A stretch of DNA of 60,006 bases, filler included, from Globobulimina sp. (lineage: Eukaryota): assembly GCA_003354225.1 (NCBI GenBank). It is 14 parts of 14 records of this genome, joined end to end, with 100 filler letters (N's around TTAATTAATTAA, not from the genome) between each part and the next. Parts side by side here need not be neighbours in the genome. Positions count along the whole stretch, not along the records: positions 8,594 to 12,789 come from PIVH01001486.1; 13 more parts are not named here. One strand, given 5' to 3'. This document shows, one piece after another, positions 1-12,620 of this stretch. The translations under genes were made by a program, and so were the position numbers. Position 1 is the first letter of the stretch, and each line of letters opens with the position of its first letter. The notes below the pieces were generated by a model that saw only the letters and a program-made list of their open reading frames with translations, had not been told where the DNA came from and made no database searches.

Positions 1-179
1 TTCCATAATTTTGTTTACACTGCACATATAGACAACTATTGAAAGATCGAGCAACTACAAGAACAATGAAAATTTGGTTGAATTGCAGCGAACAAAACAT
101 TATAAAGATTTTCTTGAAGTGAGCTAGTCATCGAGGTCTATCCTTAAATATTATATAAAACACAAAAATCTTTATAATG

Positions 180-3100
180 TCATAAATTTATCAGTTTACC
201 TTTTTTTACTTCAATTCTTAAACATTGCTCTAAATTTCCACATTCTGTAACAAATAATAATACTTCTTTACTATGGATATTTCCCATATTTTTTGGCATG
301 ATTTGTAATATAAATTCCATAGTTGATTGTGACGGAATTTGTAAAATTGGATTATTTATACGTATTATACTTGGATCATTACAAATTAATTCATAATTTC
401 TATGTTGATTATATCCATTATTATATGGTAATTTTCTTGTTATAATTTCATGATTGGAATCATTTTCAGAGTCAATATGTATAATAAATGAATTATCAAT
501 TTTAGGCATTTCAATATGTATTAATACTAAACATTTGAATATATTCTCATTCTCATTATCAATACAATGTATTCTTATTAGTTTTTTACCAATTTCATTT
601 GGTGCATATTCTATATTTAATACACTTTTGTTGTCATTGTTTATTAATTCTAATTGTATGCCATTTTGTTCATCACAAAAGAATTTAAGTTTATCCGCAT
701 TCGTATCATTTAGTAACAATGGCAAATGTATGTTATTTTTGATTATTCCGCCTAGCATTCCATGACAATTTTCATCAAAGTATGAATAAATATTTATTTC
801 CCAAACCTCATTTATATCAATACAATATTTATCATTATAAATTATAAAATAAAATGGATCATTATTTTTATGATTAACATTACATTCTTTTATATCGCAA
901 CGAAATGTAATATTCTCATTATTTTTATCAAACTCAAATGCGACATTATTATTATTATCAGTATGAATGCATTGCAATGCTAATATATGTTCATCATAAT
1001 TAGTATGAATGTTATATATTGCTGGCAGTGGTAAATTGCACATAAATTTCGCATTTTCAAATGTATAAATATCAAATCTCCGATCAATTGAACATTTTAT
1101 TGGTTCAACGGAAATATTAAATGCTATAACTTTTGATTGTGATTGCTTGTAATTATCAATTGAAACATTTATAATCCGTCTTTGAATGGATTTAAATGAT
1201 TGAAATTTAAATGGAATATATATTTTTTCTTGTGGATTGACAATAATTTCATTTGTATTTTCTCTTTCAAATAAATGTCGTTTCATTGTTGTCGATACAT
1301 TGTATTTCTCCTTTAAATAACTCAATTCTTTAATATTTGTCACTAATTTTAATTCATTATTTTCATTCTCATTTATATCAATCATTGGATCATTTATATT
1401 TATTTCAAATTTCTTTTTTTCATTCCATGGATTTTCAAATTGTATCTCAAAAAATATATTTTGGCCAAAATAAGGTTGAATTATAAATTGATCCGATTGA
1501 CTTAATTTATTTAACATTTCTTGTTTTTTTCTATTTCGAAAATCGTTCATTGTTTCCATATTTTCTTTTCTTACTCGCCAGTCATGATTGTCATTATTAT
1601 TATCATTCATTGATATTTCATGGATTGATTCAATTGGTATTTTCCATTTGGTTGTAATACTTTGTATGGGATAACTTAATATTGCATGTTTTGCGAACCC
1701 TTTTCTGAGCTTTTGAGTAAGCTTTGGATTTTCATATAATTTTGATGCATTAATACGTTTGTTTTGGGATTGCATAAGTTTTAAACTACGCACACAAAGT
1801 TCACCAGATTCATCACATATATTTGTTATTAGGTTTTGAGACCAATTGGCATAGCGTAATGTTGCGGTGTCTGATAAGTCCACGGCTTTATGTATAATTT
1901 GTATACATAATTTCGCAGTGATTGTAGTATTTGTACTTGTATTTAAGGATATATTTGTTTGTGTTTCTATGATTGCTGACGGATTATCAGTTATTTTGGT
2001 GCATATTATCGGGATTTCAATATTTTCATTTATTGTATTGTCTTTATTACAATTATTTTGTAACAAAAAATCTCTTAAACATAGACGTGCCGAACCAATT
2101 TGAAACATTGTATTTGCATTAAATATTGTAAATATCGCATATTTGTTATTTGAAAAATGTATAAATTCGCGGATTTGATTGGGAAGAATATTAAATTCAA
2201 ATTTATATTCTTCGACAAATGGTAATAATTGATATTTATCCTCAGCCATTAACGATTCCCGCAGATTATTTATGGTTGTATTTATTGATAGCATTATCGG
2301 TTCGGACATTACTTTTTCTCCCATAAAATCTAATTGAATTATAATTGATTGGATTGGATTCAACAATAAATGTTTTGCCAAAATATTTAAAGAATTACAA
2401 CCAATTGAAAATGCACGTTGATGGCTTAAACTTAATTCATGTTCAATATCTATCACTTTTCTATTTGGAATTAAATCATACGGTGAAAACTCAGTTGTTC
2501 CATAACCGCAACATCTTAACGATCTAACTGAGTGCGATTGTTTTAATAGTTTAACGTTTGGATATGTGTTGTTTTGTAATTTCTGCCATGTGTTGACTGC
2601 AAAACTGTCCTGCAACAATCCTAACTTTGAGGAGCTATCCATTTTATGTTGTAACACGTTGCTTGGTATGATTAGTGATTGTTTTTTAATATCATCCCAA
2701 TCCATAGCCACATACCCTTGAGGTGTTGGCAATATATTGCTACCGCTATTATTTGTATTTATAGTAAGTGGTGTATCAACAAATGTGTTTGTTGTTGTTG
2801 ATGTGATATTGCTTTTCATAGATGATGGATTCTGAGATATTGTACATGTATCAAATGATGTAGCTGTACTTTTGGTGCTTTTGGTACTATTTTGTGTTGA
2901 TGGAGATATATATTCTGTAGATGTGGAGGATAACATGCGAATAACAAATGTTGTTTCAATAATATGTTTTGTATTTGTTTTAATATTATTAAATATTGCA
3001 CAGTCATCAATCCATGAATAATTTGGTGTTAATATTAATTTCGTTGCTTCTGTCCCGTTTAATATCAGTTTATTTGATGTAATATTTATTAATTCTCTGC

Positions 3101-4197
3101 CTACGCAGACAGTATGATGATGGGATGGTGCTTGCACAGAAAACGGATCATCTCTCCATTCTATATTATAATTTAATGATATTAGTAACCAAATAGTATT
3201 GTTTAAATTCGCATTGACTCTAATTTTTATATCACCATTCCAGCATAAAACATTTGGATCATTTGAATGTTTTTGAAGCTGAATAATTGTCGGTGTGGTG
3301 ATGATGTCCCTTTGATTGTAAAATGATATATTTAGATATCTATCAATTATTTTTGAAACTGTTTGATCGGAGCCGCAGAAATTATTTTTCCGAATTATTG
3401 TTAACTTTTCTAATATTTCACTTTCAAATCCTTCGTTTAATGTTAATATAGGTGATGATATAACAAAATCGGTTGCTTTTATATCAAATATAAGACGCCA
3501 TGATTTATCATAGGGATGCGATGGGATATTATTTTGATTACCAGTTCCAATGATTGTTTCTGAAGAGAATAAATGCGAAATGCATACTAATTTTTTGAAT
3601 GTAAATGATCGAAATGACAGTTTTATGGACGTTTCTGGAATAGAATTTGTGTCGTTGTTTATTAACAAATAGGAAGGCGACCCTTGAAATAAAAAATGTG
3701 TTTTTAATTTACTTTCTCTTTGTAACGGATCATTGTTATTTTCATCTGGATGCACATCAATTAATGCGCGCGTATTTGCAAATAATTTAATCACTGTCCA
3801 TCCCAATGATATTTGATTTATTATCACACCTTCATTTCGTGTCTGAGCCACTAATTCAATCACAATCCATTTAGATTCATATGCTTTTGATTTTAAATAC
3901 ATCCAGACTTTGGTAATTGGAACAGCCTGATTATTGCTGTCGGTATCAAATGGCTCGGATTTCCATGTTCTTCCAATGAAACATGACTCATTGCTGTCAA
4001 ATATTGAACAATATAATAATATTTCAATTTTTCCGGACGCGTTGCTTTGATTTTGTAATTGGGAAATATACCATGTTGGAATTTGAATTGGAGCCAAACT
4101 ATCTACGCATATCGCATAACATTGAGGCTTACATTGAGGTATACCTGCTGTGGATGGCAATTTTAACCCTTTTAATTTAGACACAGCTTTCTTTAAA
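180..4197 (-). CDS. NPHP4: Nephrocystin-4-like ciliary transition-zone protein, intronless, 5' end runs off the contig
   Basis: 1334-aa ORF whose frame stays open to the contig edge (the track's start is a GTG). N-terminal C2 motifs FIGRTWKS, WIVIELV, ISLGW and LFQGSP, and the C-terminal Ig-like region PYFGQNIFFEIQFENP...IPFKFQSF...IDRRF, match NPHP4. Confidence 0.8.
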
Positions 4198-4297
4198 NNN
4201 NNNNNNNNNNNNNNNNNNNNNNNNNNNNNNNNNNNNNNNNNTTAATTAATTAANNNNNNNNNNNNNNNNNNNNNNNNNNNNNNNNNNNNNNNNNNNN
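4198..4297. other. Artificial contig-joining spacer (first of 13)
   Basis: 44 N + TTAATTAATTAA (stops in all six frames) + 44 N. The same spacer occurs at 8494-8593, 12790-12889, 17085-17184, 21380-21479, 25674-25773, 29968-30067, 34261-34360, 38554-38653, 42846-42945, 47137-47236, 51428-51527 and 55718-55817. Confidence 0.99.
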
Positions 4298-4543
4298 CGT
4301 TTGGCTCATCCCGTGGGCCTTGCAAGTTTGGTGGAGTCGCCATTGTTAAGTTGACGAGTGAAAACTAATTCGATTAGTGATTTTACTTTCAATTCACTTA
4401 AATGCACAAACTCTTATCATCAGGCGATACTAAAAGAGATAATACATCCATATTTGAAAACCATTGAAAATACTGTATTTCTGCAGAAAGCTGTATTTTC
4501 AAACTCCTAAAAAAACAACTTAACTGAAAACTCATCTGTCACC

Positions 4544-7258
4544 ATGCCTGCCTTCCAATGGACTTACATAATATGTTGTTTAATCCAATTGGCAACCTCT
4601 CAATCCGTAGATCAATTTACCATATCTACAACTGCAGCACATCCAGGTGACGATGCCACTAACTTAGAAGTGACTTTGTATTGGGGAAATAATTCATACA
4701 ATTGTTCGTTTCCAACATCAACCACTACACAAGCTGAATATAACTGCAATGACCAAGCACCCTGGTCCCCAGTAGAAATATCTCAAGATTATACATTGCC
4801 GTATTATCTCCAATTCAAATGGATGACAGGTGGTGATGTAGCAACTTCTTTGATTGAAATTGATGCCATTAATGTTACACTTGACAATGGTTTTTGGTAC
4901 GCTATCGACCATTTTTGTATTCGTTAAGTTGTCTTGGTCGTAAATACGGGATGCATCCAATTGCAATTTAATTGTATTTATTGTAAATATTAAATAGATT
5001 CAATGATGTCGTGTACATCGGGCCTTTCCAGCACACAAAAATGTGGTCAATGGAGTTCAAAAGATGAATATAACACTTTCAAAATGGGCAGCACCACAAA
5101 TTTTCAATTATTATATGTAGATTTTCGATCGAACATAACTGGAATTCCCAATTTTGCCAATATAATACACGAAGGATCCGTTAGACCGCCAATTTTGGTG
5201 CAATTAGGTCTTACCACTCAACAAACATACGATGCGGATGCAGTGAGTGCTCAATGGGACAACAAATATTACCGTTGTACGGGCGGAATGACTTTTACAG
5301 ACTCCGTTGGTAATTGGACATGCGACATAACGGAATCAAAGACCTGTCCTGGTGTTAACAGCAGTTTTTGGTGGAGTATCCATAACGATGCGACTGGCGT
5401 GGCCGAAACCATAACTGTTACCGGTGTACAAGTTACTGATGAGACTGGCACAACTTATAGAATGTCGCAATGGTGTCATCCACTCGAGGATCCATTCTAT
5501 ACTAATGCTTATTCAAATTGTATAGAATTAACTTCCTATATCCATTATACTGATCCTATTCCTGTTGGTGGAATGTTTGTCGACGTCTCACAAGTTGCCT
5601 TTATTGCCCCTGATTATGCTCAACAATTTTCCTGTTTATTTGCCTACCCAGATGTGTATGAACCCAACATTGACATTGCTGTGTTATCAGGTACTGTAAA
5701 TATAATATATTGTATCCTTGCACACCATAATATACATCATAATATAATATAAAAATATGTGCATGCAGCTGATGGTGGTATGAAAGGATGGGGACATGAT
5801 AAATATGGAGGAACCACCGATATTGTATGCCCAATCACACCCGGACCGACTACATATCCCACCACGTCACCAACATTTGAGCCTACCTCTGAGCCAACCT
5901 GGGAGCCAACATTCGAACCGACCTTTGTACCAACCTCCAATCCCACTTTCCATCCCACCGCAGATCCCACATTCGAACCCACCGTACAACCAACACACGA
6001 TCCAACCAATGACCCGACCTCCGAACCTACACAACAACCCACATATGAACCAACTACAAATCCAACTGATCAGCCTACACATAATCCAACATCAGACCCA
6101 ACCTATGAGCCAACAACTAACCCTACATTTGACCCCACATCTGAGCCTTCCTATGAACCCACAAACCACCCCACCAGTCATCCATCATCTGATCCAACAC
6201 TTGACCCAACATATGAGCCTACTTACGAGCCCACCACTTATCCAACAACTGATCCCACTGCAGACCCAACATCAGATCCTACACATAATCCAACATCAGA
6301 CCCAACCTCTGAACCAACAACGAACCCCACATATTACCCTAGCTCTGAACCCACATTTGACCCCACCTCTGAGCCTACCTATGAACCCACCAATTATCCC
6401 ACATCAGATCCTACATTTGAGCCTACACATAATCCAACCTCACACCCTACATTTGAGCCCACCAATTATCCAACAACCGATCCCACTGTAGACCCAACCT
6501 CAGATCCTACATTTGAGCCTACCAATAATCCAACCACTCATCCAACTGCCGATCCCAGTGCAGATCCTACATTCCATCCTACCTTTTACCCAACATATAA
6601 CCCAACCGGTGAACCAACATTGGATCCAACGGCCACCACTGAAAATGTCGTGGATGATAGATTTATATTACCATACAATATCCAATGGATTGAAGGGATA
6701 ATCGCCATTGTGGCCTTATTGATATGTTGCTTATTATTTGGTATTTGTTGTTGGTGTTACAGACGAAAACTGAAAGCTGAAAAGGAAAAAGTTAAAACAT
6801 TGGGTGGTAATATTACAGCCGGTACTGAAATGACAGAAACAACAAAAACAACCATAGTTTTGAATACGGCGGAGGAGGAACAGAAGGATAATGAGCACGG
6901 TTTCGAGGCAGTACAAGCAGAATCACCAGATGTCGAATTAGCAGATGATATTGATATTAAATTGGAGGATTCAGATGAAATAAAGTTAGAACAAGCATGG
7001 ACAGAGGGGGGAGAAGGTGGTAAATCAATTGATACCATAAACACTATGAATACGGGTGATTTTGTGGGCTCATTGGATGGCGTTCGAGATACTGGCAACA
7101 AAGATGATGCCGCATTGGACTTGATTTTAGATGGTGCTCCTACACAGCACCAACATCGTGAAGTATGTTTTTATTTTGTTTCTTATATTTTGGAGAATCG
7201 GATGTTAGTTATTGACTTATTGTTTATTGTTAAACAGAGTGTCAAGTTTACTGTGTAG
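4544..7258 (+). CDS. Type I membrane mucin-like surface protein: signal peptide, two related Cys-containing beta domains, PTxxPT stalk, TM, acidic tail (~828 aa, 4 exons)
   Basis: Exons 4544-4922, 4998-5690, 5769-7162 and 7238-7258 join in frame through GT-AG introns of 75, 78 and 75 nt (the last is in-frame and inferred). Hydrophobic N-terminus; TM GIIAIVALLICCLLFGICCW followed by RRKLK. Confidence 0.8.
5837..6640 (+). repeat. Coding tandem repeat, 12-nt / 4-aa (xxPT)n Pro-Thr stalk
   Basis: About 65 degenerate units such as FEPT, SDPT, YEPT, HNPT and TDPT. Confidence 0.95.
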
Positions 7259-7676
7259 GTAAAGTGGCAAACTAATCCTCAAATTACATTGGAAGCTTTA
7301 TTTTTATGGTGGTTTTGTTTTCATTGTAATCGCGTTCGTTTGTTTATAATATTCAAGCTCATAGATTGGGCATGACCTATGGTCGAGGAACATGAATCAT
7401 AATATTTATTAACACTGTGATTTATTGTCTGATGTTGTAAAATATTCTCGACATGAAATAAATGTATGTTGCTCGACGTCGCGTCATATTCAATCTATTG
7501 GACTTGATGCCATTAATGTGAGTTTTGAATATATTATTTTTGTTTCCTTGTGAGTGAGAGTAACAAACTAGTTGAATATTCGTCTATTAGTTCACAACAA
7601 CGTTTTGATGAAGCTTAATACTCGTTCAGTGACTCAAATTTTTTTAGTCATATTAGTTACACAATACACAGTAACC

Positions 7677-8493
7677 ATGCTGCTGTTCATCGTTAGCTTG
7701 CTTTTTGTGATAATCAACGCAGTTGATATATACACAAATGATTGCGGGAGATTGGACGGTTGGTTTGGAACTGGAATAGTCCATGGGACATTCACAGGAG
7801 GAATGTATTGCCCAGGTTCTGATATCGTTTGTTGGAGAGTATCTGGTTCCTGTTGTATTGGAAGTAAAGTGTACCCAAGAAATAGCATCAGTACATCAGG
7901 ACATAATAACATATTTGTAGAGTTTTACGTATATTTTGATCTAACAATTCCAACAAACTTCGAGGGTTGTTATGTTGACATCAGTTATAATAATGGTTCA
8001 AGTTGGAACGATGCGTTTTATACAGTTACACCAAATATTAAATATCAAGCAACTGTAGATTTACCTGCCAACGCTGACAATAATCCGAATTTGAAGATTC
8101 GCTTCCGAGTTGATTCAGAAGTTGATGAAGAAGAAAATTGTTACATTAATGACCTCCGTATTTATTCCGTGACTGCGCCACCAACATCACAGCCAACAAC
8201 AAGTACTCACACATGTACATGTACATATTTTTGATATATTTTCAAAATCTGTCACATATATACCTACAACCTCAGCACCAACAACCTCAGCACCAACAAC
8301 CTCAACACCAACAACCTCAGCACCCACAACCTCAACACCAACAACCTCAAATCCAACCACATGTATGTTTATAATATGGACAACAAACAAAATCATTTGT
8401 AACACGACTTTACACAGCTATGCCTACAACAAATGTTCCATCTGTTCCTCCGACAACTTCCGTGCCAACAACAACACAGCAACCAACAATTGA
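7677..8493 (+). CDS. Secreted or surface protein with a jelly-roll-like domain followed by (APTTS)n repeats; 3' truncated
   Basis: ATG at 7677 with signal peptide MLLFIVSLLFVIINA. Domain ISTSGHNNIFVEF...SYNNGSSW...LPANADNNPNLKIRFR...CYINDLRI. Probable introns start at about 8203 and 8362. 15-nt tandem repeats at about 8263-8360. Confidence 0.65.
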
Positions 8494-8644
8494 NNNNNNN
8501 NNNNNNNNNNNNNNNNNNNNNNNNNNNNNNNNNNNNNTTAATTAATTAANNNNNNNNNNNNNNNNNNNNNNNNNNNNNNNNNNNNNNNNNNNNTTTTGTG
8601 TTTCAAGCTTAGAGTATACAAAAATTTAGCAACACTTTTTATAC

Positions 8645-11600
8645 ATGGCAACTCTTTTAATATTACTAAGCAGTATATTTTCCAAATGTTTATCAGTCAC
8701 ACCGCTCGGCGATTGGAGATCCGGCGGCCAAGCATCCAAACATTACTACGCAGGCGCCGGATCCAGCACAGCTTGCGGTTTTATCAATGTGGACAGTTAT
8801 TTAAACGGAGTGCCTCCACATCCATCGCATGACTCAGCCTTTCCGTTTGGTTTCGTTTCAGCCGTTGGTACCGTACCTACAGGCTCCCCCTTTGACAATT
8901 TATTCTCTCCCAACGATGTCACTGGACAAGGCTGTGGCGCATGTTATGAAATCCAATGCATCGGAATCTGGGGCGATGCACAAGAAGGTATATAATACAT
9001 ATTTAAAAATGCATTAACATACATATTCCCCTACATATACACATAAAAAAGGCTGTGTGTGTAACGCAGAGAGTGTGGTGGTGCAAGCCATTGATTTGTC
9101 GGGACTGAATCCTGAACCACATTTTGATATTGCATATGCGGGATTTGATGTAATTGCGGGTCCGTTGTGCGGCCGCGTAGCCATTGATTATCGTCAAGTG
9201 ACCTGCGACTTCACCGACAATATCTATATAAGTACGGATTGGAACGATGCCTGGTCATATTATTTGAACTTTTATAATGTGGCAGGCGACGGGAAATTGT
9301 GTGGCGTCGAGTTACGATCGAATGGAGTTAGTGAGTGGATGACATGTAGCAATATCGGATCAAAATGGCAGTGTGATGACTCCAACTTGGAACCTACTGT
9401 TTTGCCGTTGAGCTTCCGCTTAACGGATTGTGCCGGACAGGTAATCACTGCCATTGATGTTGTGACGGCATTTGGTGCTATCACCGGTGTGTAATATTGC
9501 ATACAAATGCAAATGGAATCTATACAGCGGATGTTTATGTATACAGCGGATTTAGGCGTCAATTTCGTGTATGGAGGCGGTGTAAGTACCAGCAGCACGA
9601 CAACAACGACAACCACCACCACGACAAGTACCACTGCAGCACCTGTGGGTGGTATAACATATCCATTGTTTGTGTCGTATGTTGGACAAATTGGCCCATC
9701 GTGGGGTGATTCGCACAATGCAGTTCTTTTAAGCAATCTGTTAAGTGCAAATCTATCAAAAATGAAGACATATTGTACTCTGTATACAGTACTTTTCATT
9801 TCGCTGTTTAGTTTGTGTCCGATTTACATTTTTGTACTTAAAAACAAACCTTAACACAAACTGAAATGTGCTGTATACCGTACATTTACATTATAACCAT
9901 TTAAATACATATATTTTGTTAAAAATAAAAGTGGTGTACCAGGCTACAGTACGCATCCATACAACGTATTAAATTTTGCATTTTGGCTCTCGAGCACAAA
10001 CGTCGCCGCACTCCGCACCGCGGCCGGAAGTTGGCAAAACTTAGCAACCTTCATCACGGACAACACGTTACTTCAAACCTTGACCGGTTCGACAAACCCA
10101 ACTTCAGCCCAATTACGCACAGCGATCAAAGCCATATACACCGCCAACAACATCAAAATATTCCTATCCGCCTTTGGCGCCAACGACGATCCCATGACCT
10201 ATGGCGCGAGCACAGTGGGTACAAATTTAGGCAGCTATGCAAAAACATACTTATACGATGGAGTCGATGTAGATTGGGAAAGTACGGCCACTTTCGACTA
10301 TGCAGGTACTGGCGAAGCATGGCTAACTGCGCTAACTTCGGCGTTAAACACCGAATTAAATCCGACGGGGAAAAGTTATCTGATCTCGCACGCGCCGCAA
10401 GCTCCTTATTTTATGGGCAGCACACTCTCTCAGTACCCGCGGGGCGGCTATTTGACAGTACATAGCAACGTGGGACATTTGATTGATTGGTACAATGTGC
10501 AGTTTTATAACCAGGGTCCCTCGACTTTGTACAATAGCTATTCCAATATGTTCGAGGCTTCGATTGGTTGGAGCTTAAATACTGCGGTGTATCAGATGAT
10601 AAATGGCGACAATCCGGAAAGTGTATCCATACCAAGCAGCAAAATTGTTGTTGGCAAACATTCGTTGGGCGATGGCAGCGATTTTGTGGATGGAGCTACA
10701 TTGAAAAGCATCTTCAACATTGCTTTGGCGAGTTCTCCGGTATGGAATACGGGGTTTATGTGCTGGCAGTTTTATACGGAGAACACTCAGAGTCCGCAGT
10801 TCCAGGTCGCGAATGCAGTGGTTGCTGCCAATTGGGATTTGACTGTGACGGCAGCGCCGACATCGCCGACCTTAGCACCGGCGCCGACTACGGCGAATCC
10901 GACCGGTAACGGTGGAGGTGGTGGCTGTGTGAGCGGCAATATTTGTGTTAAAGTAAAAGGTATTTTGATGTGTTTTTTGGTGGTTTGTAGGTTGAAACAT
11001 TGGGTTTTTGTTTTTGAAAACGTGCAGGATTTGCATCTGAAACACCGACGGCGGGGTCACCGGTTTGGTGGTGGGGCATATATGACGAGAATATCATAGA
11101 TTCGTTGGGCGGTGGTTGTGCTATCTCGGGTTGCACAGATATCGAAATAAAGCAAAGTAGTTCGAATGTGTGGATTGCTGCTTATGATGAAAATGGTGAT
11201 TGCAGCTTTAATATGGGAGGTGATCCATTTACATCTGCTCGGATCTCAGTTGATGTTAAGATTACCAGTACCAATGGCGATGTTGTTGTGGCTGCGGGCG
11301 TTGTGCAGACAACTGCTGCTGATACGGAATGGGATTTTGGCTCTAATTTTGGTTCATGCACTGGTGCCACCGGTATGTAGTATATATTATGTATATTTTG
11401 TGTATAAAATGCGTTTTGCGACAGCAAATCCGTCGAGCTCACCAACGGAAAGACCATCTGCAACACCTACAGCAAGGCCTTCAGGTATAACATAATAAAT
11501 ATATTACATAATATGAGAATTAATTAATATTTTTGCGACAGCAAATCCGTCGAGCTCACCAACGACAAAACCATCTGCAACACCTACAGCAAAACCGTCA

Positions 11601-12620
11601 GGTATATAATATGAACATTCTGCACACAAAATTAAACCATGTATACATATAACAGCAAACCCGTCAATCTCACCAATAGAAAATCCAACCGCAGCACCAA
11701 TTGATAGTACATCAACGCCAACTAAATCCCCCGCAAATGACCCAACATCACGACCTACACGAAATCCAACGGGAAGTCCAACACAAAAACCTTCTAAAAA
11801 CCCAACATCTTCTCCCAATGCACGTACCTCAACGCCCTCTAAAGCCCCAACCACAAAACCTACCACAAACCCAACCCAAAATCCAGCACAAAACGACACA
11901 CCAAATCCCACCAAAACCCCAACCAGAAAACGACCGACGAGAAGTCCAAAGCCGACGAGAAGTCCACATAGTGAGACAACGCCATGTATCAGTTCGTGCA
12001 CAGGCGAAGCTAACCGCGATTATCAATCATGTAATGGGTGCCGTGTGTTCGCGACCTGCAGCAATGGCATCATTTATGACAATAGAGCCTGTCCAGCGGA
12101 CTTAGTATTTGATGCTGACCTGAAATATTGTGGCCGTACTTCCAGCACTTGCTCAGACTCAAATGCCTTCACCAGTGGTGGCGGCGGGAGTGGTGCGACG
12201 CAGTCATTGTATATTGTGTTGAGTGTGGTGGCGTTGCTTATTGTTTGTTGTGGTGTCGCCGCCCTGTCATTCCGTTGTGTGTATAAAAAGAAAAGAAGCA
12301 AAACAAGAAGGAAATCGCAAGAAGACTTGGCTAATGTTATCCAAATGAATGACTTGGCGTCGTATCCTGGACCGACTCATGTCGCATTACCCTCGAAATC
12401 GGTTGGTCTGGATACGAATACTTCGACGGATGGCTCTCAAATTGGGTTTGCTGCCAATACTGATTCTGGAGCAATGTTATCGGTGCAAGCCCCAGCCATT
12501 AAAGCACTGAATATGGTGAAATCTTATTCGGTGTCGGTTTATTCGCCGGAGTTGAAACCGGTGCCGCAGCCACAAATTGCATCGCAACCGCAAGATACTG
12601 ACAATTCGTTTGTTATTTAA
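8645..12620 (+). CDS. Multidomain membrane-anchored expansin (DPBB+CBM63) - GH18 chitinase - CBM63-like - PT stalk - CBM14 - TM protein (~1142 aa, 8 exons)
   Basis: Exons 8645-8987, 9052-9486, 9547-9739, 9932-10959, 11028-11372, 11425-11484, 11542-11601 and 11656-12620 splice in frame (3429 nt). Expansin motifs ACG, GCGACYEIQC, HFD and PLSFRLT; GH18 YDGVDVDWE, ISHAPQAPYF and NVQFYNQ; CBM14 CPADLVFD...C; TM followed by KKKR. Confidence 0.85.

What the first reader, a model, noticed from the sequence alone, without database searches (positions are those of the whole stretch)
8645..12620. Membrane-tethered expansin-chitinase: expansin + GH18 + second CBM63-like + CBM14 in one chain
Seen: eight exons splice in frame into signal peptide - complete two-domain expansin - poly-Thr linker - GH18 with intact DxDxE - a second expansin-C-terminal-like domain (WWWGIY...KITSTNGDVVVA..VV...DFGSNF) - PT stalk - CBM14 - TM - tail. 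Established: expansins loosen polysaccharide non-hydrolytically, microbial expansin fusions are usually to cellulases or CBMs, and GH18 and CBM14 act on chitin. Inference: a surface-anchored module that loosens and hydrolyses chitin, either in prey walls or in the cell's own organic lining. I do not recall this architecture being described.
Basis: partly seen in the sequence, partly recalled or inferred. Interest (0 to 1): 0.8.

Follow-up and report, generated by a model that had tools for sequence, protein, structure and literature searches.

The report
Foraminiferan membrane-anchored expansin-chitinase fusion
A shelled marine amoeba (foraminiferan) has a gene that joins a wall-loosening expansin, a chitin-cutting enzyme and chitin-gripping modules in one membrane-anchored protein, a pairing not found in print that suggests some expansins evolved to help digest chitin rather than cellulose.

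Summary
Confirmed. Eight exons (8645-12620) give one 1142-aa frame: signal peptide, two-domain expansin, poly-Thr, GH18 (D436-D438-E440), second expansin-C/CBM63-like module, P/S/T stalk, CBM14, TM, tail. All 7 introns, including 9740-9931, are joined in one public run (6 and 5 of 7 in runs of two further studies), and the expansin-chitinase junction lies inside exon 3. No single contig spans the whole gene.

The gene belongs to a foraminiferal family of GH18 + CBM63-like + membrane-anchor proteins. The slot in front of the GH18 is empty in three paralogues, holds an AA11-like LPMO in some relatives, and holds an expansin here. The expansin is a distinct subtype: it keeps the Asp71 and Asp82 equivalents but has lost a conserved binding Trp. 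Its one close relative (Bolivina) is fused to a different GH18 subfamily, though that record may be chimeric.

Best reading: a surface- or vacuole-anchored enzyme that grips, loosens and nicks food chitin (about 50%); the expansin may only bind. I found no expansin-GH18 fusion in four literature searches; CAZy and InterPro were not searchable. New variant of a known kind.

The parts
8645..8695 (+). Signal peptide, aa 1-17
   Evidence: Hydrophobic N-terminus, matched by orthologue P0053; by inspection, no signal-peptide predictor available
8714..9206 (+). Expansin domain 1 (DPBB), aa ~24-166, split by intron 1 (8988-9051); D129 and D140 are the Asp71 and Asp82 equivalents
   Evidence: the orthologue's model matches expansins at Foldseek E 1e-12
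9210..9566 (+). Expansin domain 2 (Expansin_C/CBM63), aa 168-266, split by intron 2 (9487-9546); W182 kept, W126 equivalent is S183
   Evidence: Pfam PF01357 E 1.7e-9; column comparison
9567..9656 (+). Poly-Thr linker, aa 267-296; the expansin-GH18 junction, inside exon 3
   Evidence: bridged by X7 record 25 and X1 record 2
9657..10838 (+). GH18 domain, aa 297-626, with intron 3 after its first strand; DxDxE = D436/D438/E440 (E at 10278-10280)
   Evidence: Pfam PF00704 E 1.6e-10; best PDB hit 6k7z, E 1.7e-15
9740..9931 (+). Intron 3 (192 nt, phase 2); same donor context in three paralogues
   Evidence: Joint 9739>9932 in X2, X6 and X7; paralogues L008, L018, L019
10839..10925 (+). Pro/Thr and Gly linker, aa 627-655
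10926..11359 (+). Second, stand-alone expansin-C/CBM63-like module, aa 656-777 (W680-W681-W682), split by intron 4 (10960-11027)
   Evidence: 51% identical to the module of Nonionella P0001 and 59% to paralogue L017
11360..11984 (+). P/S/T-rich stalk, aa 778-931 (61% P+S+T over aa 781-930), including two near-duplicate 60-nt exons (11425-11484, 11542-11601)
   Evidence: joints
11985..12152 (+). CBM14 (peritrophin-A), aa 932-987; six-Cys spacing plus two extra Cys
   Evidence: Pfam PF01607 24.9 bits over cut-off 22.1; Cys positions
12207..12272 (+). Transmembrane helix, aa 1006-1027, followed by a Lys/Arg run
   Evidence: Kyte-Doolittle peak 2.8
12273..12620 (+). Cytoplasmic tail (~115 aa) and stop codon
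   Evidence: depth in all four runs laid, X7 only to about 12519

Best explanation
One spliced gene encodes a type I membrane protein of a foraminiferan, displayed on the cell surface or in a food vacuole. It arose when a special-subtype expansin was joined in front of a member of a foraminiferal GH18 + CBM63-like + anchor family. The membrane-near CBM14 and the Trp-rich second module hold a chitinous particle against the membrane. The expansin at the tip slips surface chains apart without cutting. The GH18, of a small non-processive endochitinase type, nicks the freed chains. The likely job is digestion of food chitin. SHOWN: the chain, the splicing, the domains, the catalytic motif, the family context. 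INFERRED: activity, loosening, location, and food as the substrate.
For: Single frame and splicing. The GH18 keeps the equivalents of Chi23 Glu117, Gln157, Tyr189 and Asn190 (alignment; residues and non-processive endo mode from the abstract of PMC6831621). CBM14 passes its cut-off. In the same starred GH18 clade (14 rows, support 100), P0027 and P0033 carry an N-terminal His-first AA11-like LPMO plus CBM18 (PDB 7p3u E 2.8e-11, 4mah E 1.4e-3), a chitin disruptor in the slot the expansin fills here. The closest expansin relative (57% over 272 columns) occurs in Bolivina P0056 fused to a GH18 of another subfamily. Other foraminiferal expansins go with GH5 (P0047, P0068) and keep the binding Trp, which these two lack. 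Free expansins raise chitinase yield 2- to 3.4-fold in vitro (PMC11036043 section 3.4; PMC4372547 passages). Chitinases are among the most expressed GHs of a cultured foraminiferan (PMC12452270 abstract).
Against: No activity was tested. The first D2 has Ser at the W126 equivalent (Trp in 19 of 21 rows), and D1 has Ser at position 73 and His near Thr14, so loosening may be weak or lost. A review states that removing the fused expansin from the Clavibacter cellulase did not change its activity (PMC5072189 passage). Three paralogues lack the expansin, so it is dispensable for the family. P0056 is truncated and diverges from its sister record P0053 inside a repeat module, so it may be an assembly chimera. 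No single contig spans the whole mRNA. Subcellular location is unknown.
Confidence: 0.5

Rival explanations
1. Same chain and an active chitinase, but the expansin and the second module are only binding or adhesion modules. They tether the enzyme to mixed particles (cellulose- or chitin-bearing algae, fungi, detritus) and do no loosening.
For: Stand-alone D2-like modules are appended to many foraminiferal enzymes: 28 of 178 retrieved GH18-bearing proteins (redundant set), a GH5-like protein (L024) and a GH18 with a broken catalytic motif (L020). Binding-face changes in the expansin. No synergy in the Clavibacter fusion.
Against: Asp71 and Asp82 equivalents are kept in 21 of 21 rows, including this one. 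Binding alone would not need D1. Relatives put a catalytic disruptor (LPMO) in the same slot.
Confidence: 0.27
2. The protein remodels the cell's own chitin-like material (organic lining, chamber template, cyst or internal plates) during growth, as plant expansins do for their own wall.
For: A membrane anchor suits work on an adjacent self-made layer. Chitinous plates occur in Chilostomella and are argued not to be arthropod remains (PMC7894498 abstract and section 15). The assembly has chitin-synthase-like hits.
Against: The hits bearing the QRRRW motif lie on 23-24% GC contigs with long uninterrupted ORFs (L025, L028, L029), unlike the 33-39% GC of the intron-bearing loci, and may be viral or foreign. 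The same paper says no clear evidence confirms chitinous tests and that the plates were not reported from other species. The family sits among GH5 and LPMO fusions that fit feeding.
Confidence: 0.15
3. The fusion is an artefact: two genes merged by assembly or by the splice model.
For: Fragmented assembly (48,370 contigs), poly-Thr repeats at the junction, and no contig spanning the whole gene.
Against: X7 record 25 runs spliced from exon 2 (joined to exon 1) through the linker into the GH18 first strand. X2 record 11 runs from the linker across intron 3 to 10184. X7 record 27 runs from GH18 into the second module. There is no stop and no second signal peptide at the junction. Depth in the bin over intron 3 equals exon-only cover in X2 and X6.
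Confidence: 0.04

Closest known systems
Bacterial GH5-expansin fusions (Xanthomonadaceae; Clavibacter michiganensis CelA, GH5-CBM2-expansin)
   Same: Two-domain expansin and a glycoside hydrolase in one exported chain
   Different: Hydrolase is GH18, not GH5; expansin is N-terminal; extra stand-alone D2, CBM14 and TM. A survey of 491 microbial species found fusions only to CBM1, CBM2, CBM32 and GH5 (10.1101/637728, passages).
Chi23 endochitinase of Pseudoalteromonas aurantia (PDB 6k7z)
   Same: Best solved relative of the GH18 domain (E 1.7e-15); catalytic Glu and three named binding residues align
   Different: Chi23 is a lone catalytic domain; the match covers only residues 74-197 of the 342-aa exon piece
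LPMO-bearing multi-modular chitinases (Jonesia denitrificans; title seen in a reference list; domain order recalled)
   Same: A chitin disruptor fused in front of a chitinase; foraminiferal-type relatives P0027 and P0033 have this layout with an AA11-like LPMO
   Different: Here the front module is an expansin rather than a copper oxygenase, and the chain is membrane-anchored
Free chitin-active expansins (ScExlx1, HcEXL, CxEXL22)
   Same: Canonical expansins shown to boost chitinase in trans
   Different: Not fused to a chitinase; 2- to 3.4-fold in vitro effects, natural role on chitin not shown in the passages read
Membrane-anchored CBM63/expansin proteins of Phytophthora parasitica
   Same: Expansin-like proteins with a C-terminal TM, one with two CBM63 (PMC4176579 passages)
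   Different: Those carry no catalytic module

Membership tests
GH18 chitinase | PF00704 above curated cut-off | tested here: met
   41.6 bits against 29.6 on exon 4 alone
GH18 chitinase | DxDxE catalytic motif | tested here: met
   D436-D438-E440, aligned to 6k7z Glu117
GH18 chitinase | Substrate-binding residues of the nearest solved enzyme | tested here: met
   Q480, Y516, N517 align to Chi23 Gln157, Tyr189, Asn190; the other four named residues lay outside the alignment
GH18 chitinase | Hydrolysis of chitin | not testable with these tools
   Needs an assay
Expansin (EXLX-type, D1+D2) | DPBB domain followed directly by Expansin_C | tested here: met
   the model of orthologue P0053 matches EXPB1, Phl p 1 and BsEXLX1 at E 1e-12 to 7e-10, TM by target 0.75-0.78. 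The window's own D1 was not folded whole because it is split by an intron.
Expansin (EXLX-type, D1+D2) | Asp82 and Asp71 equivalents in D1 | tested here: met
   D140 and D129; invariant in 21 of 21 rows; roles from PMC5072189
Expansin (EXLX-type, D1+D2) | Thr12, Thr14 and Tyr73 support residues | tested here: inconclusive
   S31 where 20 of 21 rows have Thr; H33 falls in a gap column; S131 where 19 of 21 have Cys. Clavibacter expansin also has Cys rather than Tyr there.
Expansin (EXLX-type, D1+D2) | Aromatic pair W125/W126 on D2 | tested here: not met
   W182 kept, S183 replaces the Trp of 19 of 21 rows; register from the 4jcw alignment. Plant beta-expansins also lack this pair, so this lowers 'bacterial-type cellulose binder', not 'expansin'.
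Expansin (EXLX-type, D1+D2) | Non-lytic creep or loosening activity | not testable with these tools
   Needs an assay
CBM63 / Expansin_C (second module) | PF01357 above curated cut-off | tested here: not met
   No hit at E<=1 on exon 5, which lacks the first strand; paralogue L017 hits weakly, E 0.019
CBM63 / Expansin_C (second module) | Homology and fold of expansin D2 | tested here: met
   40.5 bits against a shuffle maximum of 9.5. VIA top four are expansin D2 (Z 7.6, rmsd 2.5, 84 aligned for the best), but Z is middling, pLDDT is 60, and the folding alignment held true D2 rows.
CBM63 / Expansin_C (second module) | Binding to cellulose | not testable with these tools
   W680/W681 present; ligand unknown
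CBM14 (peritrophin-A) | PF01607 cut-off and six-Cys spacing | tested here: met
   24.9 against 22.1 bits; C936-x13-C950-x5-C956-x10-C967-x12-C980-x6-C987 (consensus spacing recalled)

The most novel reading that the evidence does not exclude
Foraminifera have evolved a chitin-dedicated expansin subfamily with a re-tooled binding face. It has been fused independently, twice, to chitinases of two different GH18 subfamilies, and it is interchangeable with an AA11-like LPMO as the disruptor at the tip of a family of membrane-tethered polysaccharide-digesting chains built on stand-alone CBM63-like modules. This would be natural evidence that an expansin works in cis on chitin.
Probability: 0.3. Interest if true: 0.8.

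Novelty: new variant of a known kind. Interest (0 to 1): 0.62.

Why it matters
Whether fused expansins help their hydrolase partner is unresolved, and work on chitin has used free expansins added in trans. This gene and its relatives form a natural comparison series on one GH18 clade: no front module, LPMO, or expansin. That makes the question directly testable. It also gives a molecular candidate for how foraminifera, major sediment consumers, attack chitin at their membrane; a 2025 transcriptome study left open a 'previously unrecognized extracellular mechanism' (PMC12452270, passage). The scaffold could guide chitin-processing enzyme design.

Tried and rejected
Neighbourhood analysis: rejected, because the window is size-sorted contigs joined by linkers.

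Alternative splice sites for intron 3: 23 in-frame GT..AG pairs were possible; runs show only 9739>9932. Retention of intron 3 would give a short expansin-linker-hydrophobic-tail product; bin depth in X2 and X6 equals exon-only cover, but contigs drop rare forms.

No run is on record as RNA; X6 and X7 are guessed RNA and X2 is unlabelled, so cDNA is inferred from the joints. Depth was not used as an expression level. Two non-GT..AG joints (9923>12677 in X2; 10516>10640 in X7) were set aside as probable artefacts or paralogue reads.

Searches for more copies of this expansin subtype: one search found only P0053 and P0056 (2 of 717 candidates, lengths 359-1145); one search found 0 of 226 pattern matches; a scan of 78 metagenome loci found D1 in none. 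The ESM Atlas gave no usable hit for P0056, which shows neither absence nor novelty. Foldseek on the second module gave no match at E<=0.001; the best were Phl p 1 and Phl p 2 at 8e-3.

The careful GH18 tree did not finish, and its quick version held one mis-framed row (L020). The tree was rebuilt by FastTree without that row, with the same placement of the query. No rooted one-clade test was run, so the order of fusion events is not shown. The Y157 equivalent could not be placed reliably.

Literature: no expansin-GH18 fusion or foraminiferal expansin appeared in the listings (open-licence library only). 'Expansin' and 'CBM63' occur 0 times in the one held supplement of PMC12452270, and 'expansin' 0 times in its main text. 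The supplementary fusion table of 10.1101/637728 was not seen (bioRxiv supplements are closed) and may bear on novelty.
Full report
1. The observation. The window is a string of unrelated contigs of about 4.2 kb joined by N-linkers. The gene sits alone on the contig at 8594-12789 (G000:C1486 of a 70-Mb, 48,370-contig assembly), so neighbours say nothing. Eight exons give 3429 nt and 1142 aa with one terminal stop. The seven introns are GT..AG, AT-rich and 52-192 nt long. Pfam finds Expansin_C, GH18 and CBM14 above their cut-offs on single exons; DPBB_1 is weak on the two halves of the split D1. A hydrophobic N-terminus and a TM helix (aa 1006-1027) followed by a basic run indicate a type I membrane protein (the signal peptide is judged by eye).

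2. One chain? I laid 4 of the 10 listed runs. X2 (about 99% identical) shows 7 of 7 introns removed, X6 6 of 7 and X7 5 of 7 (mostly 90-99% identical); they come from three different studies. X1 shows 0 of 7 and carries introns 2 and 3 unspliced; it may be the window's source and is not independent. None of the runs is on record as RNA, so cDNA is inferred from precise intron loss. It lies inside the GH18 barrel, and three paralogues share its donor context. The true expansin-chitinase junction is inside exon 3, with no stop and no second signal peptide. X7 record 25 crosses it (9049-9485 + 9546-9721), X2 record 11 runs from the linker to 10184, and X7 record 27 runs from GH18 into the second module. 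No contig spans the whole gene, so the full chain is tiled, not seen in one piece.

3. The domains. GH18: D436-D438-E440 is intact. The best solved relative is 6k7z (E 1.7e-15), Chi23, a non-processive endochitinase active on crystalline chitin (PMC6831621, abstract); its Glu117, Gln157, Tyr189 and Asn190 align with E440, Q480, Y516 and N517. Expansin: the closest relative P0053 (57% over 272 columns) folds to a model that matches plant and bacterial two-domain expansins at E 1e-12 to 5e-9. The Asp71 and Asp82 equivalents are kept in 21 of 21 rows. The query and P0053 form their own long branch (support 100) and alone have Ser for the W126-equivalent Trp and Ser for Cys at position 73 (residue roles from PMC5072189 passages). 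Second module: no Pfam hit alone, but 40.5 bits against a profile of 19 true D2 domains, with 0 of 500 shuffles reaching it. The top four structural matches are expansin D2 domains at middling Z (6.1-7.6), from a pLDDT-60 model whose alignment included true D2 rows. It is 51% identical to the module of Nonionella P0001 and has no significant BLAST match to the protein's own first D2, so it probably came with the chitinase parent. CBM14: six-Cys spacing, 37% identical to the CBM14 of another chitinase in the genome (L031).

4. The family. Named relatives are foraminiferal: Nonionella stella, Bolivina argentea, Rosalina, Ammonia and Elphidium. Among 214 retrieved proteins (a redundant set that includes cluster members), 178 carry GH18. 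Of these, 28 also carry D2-like modules, often before a TM or hydrophobic tail; 6 carry an LPMO-like N-terminus; 1 (P0056) carries an expansin D1; none carries this CBM14. In the genome, L008, L018 and L019 have the signal peptide directly on the GH18. L015 has expansin, poly-Thr, a second D2 and a TM without GH18. L020 has a D2-like module and a GH18 with a broken motif in one ORF. The query's GH18 is nearest to L018 (71%) inside a 14-row clade (support 100). In that clade P0027 and P0033 begin with a His-first domain that hits chitin-active AA11 LPMOs (7p3u, E 2.8e-11; Atlas LPMO-like clusters at 0.90-0.93), followed by CBM18. So the slot before one kind of GH18 is empty, an LPMO, or an expansin. 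P0056 has the same expansin subtype fused to a GH18 of another subfamily (60% to L031; only a 57-residue, 32% match to the query's GH18). That points to two separate fusions, but P0056 is truncated and departs from its sister record P0053 inside a repeat module, so a chimera is possible. Trp-bearing foraminiferal expansins are instead fused to GH5 (P0068 by Pfam; P0047 by its match to P0068).

5. How it likely works. Shown: chain, splicing, motifs, family. Inferred: CBM14 and the WWW-bearing module hold a chitinous particle at the membrane on a stalk; the expansin at the tip frees surface chains; the endo-acting GH18 cuts them. Support comes from the LPMO/expansin swap, from two chitinase partners for this expansin subtype, and from 2- to 3.4-fold chitinase boosts by free expansins (PMC11036043 abstract and section 3.4; PMC4372547 passages). 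Against it are the altered binding face, the paralogues that lack the expansin, and the lack of gain reported for the Clavibacter fusion. I put loosening plus hydrolysis of food chitin at 0.5, binding only at 0.27, remodelling of own chitin at 0.15 and artefact at 0.04. On self-chitin: chitinous plates are reported in one genus (PMC7894498 abstract, passages and section 15), and PMC8862658 (passages) offers no evidence of chitin in its species. In this assembly the QRRRW-bearing synthase hits lie on 23-24% GC contigs with long uninterrupted ORFs and may be foreign.

6. Known and new. Expansin fusions in a 491-species survey were to CBM1, CBM2, CBM32 and GH5 only (10.1101/637728, passages; 'GH18', 'foraminif' and 'Rhizaria' occur 0 times in its main text; supplements not seen). 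A review adds chitin-binding, dockerin and discoidin domains. TM-anchored CBM63 proteins without catalytic modules occur in Phytophthora (PMC4176579 passages). An LPMO-bearing chitinase is known (title in the reference list of PMC5589716). A 2025 foraminiferal GH study reports GH18 transcripts and does not mention expansins (PMC12452270 abstract, passages and one supplement). Search listings showed no expansin-GH18 fusion; CAZy, InterPro and subscription journals were not searchable. Earlier scan notes describe stand-alone CBM63-like tags in archaea and an AA11-expansin fusion in a giant virus; they are unchecked leads, and no note matched this sequence.

7. Verdict. A real, spliced gene with the architecture described, and a new variant of known disruptor-hydrolase fusions. 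Its interest lies in a testable natural series (none, LPMO, expansin) on one chitinase clade and a possibly chitin-tuned expansin subtype. Interest 0.62.

Noticed in passing
P0027, P0028, P0033 (JGI proteins): His-first AA11-like LPMO + CBM18 + GH18 + two CBM63-like modules + TM in one chain of about 1040-1060 aa, in the same GH18 clade as the foraminiferal proteins.
   Followed up: partly
P0047 (Rosalina), P0068 (Nonionella), L024:145-1233 (-): Expansin + D2-like + GH5 fusions, with further D2-like modules and a TM in P0047: a eukaryotic parallel to bacterial GH5-expansin fusions. L024 is a GH5-like C-terminus with D2 and TM in this genome.
   Followed up: partly
L020:674-1942 (-) = G000:C2310: One ORF with a signal peptide, a CBM63-like module and a GH18 whose catalytic motif reads DGINLNFD (no Glu), probably a chitinase-like lectin; a TM follows in the next exon.
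   Followed up: partly
G000:C436 (L025, L028, L030) and C3889 (L029): 23-26% GC contigs with long uninterrupted ORFs: two chitin-synthase-like genes beside a canonical GH18 on C436, and a third synthase-like gene on C3889; possibly a giant virus or other foreign DNA in the assembly.
   Followed up: partly
L026:999-3059 (-) = G000:C3768: 33% GC family-2 glycosyltransferase without the QRRRW motif, resembling hyaluronan-synthase-type enzymes (resemblance recalled); a candidate host polysaccharide synthase.
   Followed up: no
P0064 (Seminavis robusta), P0057, P0060, P0062: The common foraminiferal expansin type is close to a diatom expansin and its kin; P0062 is an expansin-GH8 fusion.
   Followed up: no
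L018:479-2640 (-) = G000:C1285: Paralogue with GH18, a Cys-rich module with no Pfam hit, a divergent D2-like module and a TM.
   Followed up: partly
P0019, P0020: LPMO-like N-terminus fused to a more distant GH18, outside the query's clade.
   Followed up: no
window 9740-9851: Read-through into intron 3 would add a hydrophobic stretch and a stop, giving a short anchored expansin; no contig cover supports it.
   Followed up: yes
window 8060-8493: The preceding, unrelated contig ends in small phase-matched Pro/Thr-repeat exons like those of this gene's stalk.
   Followed up: no
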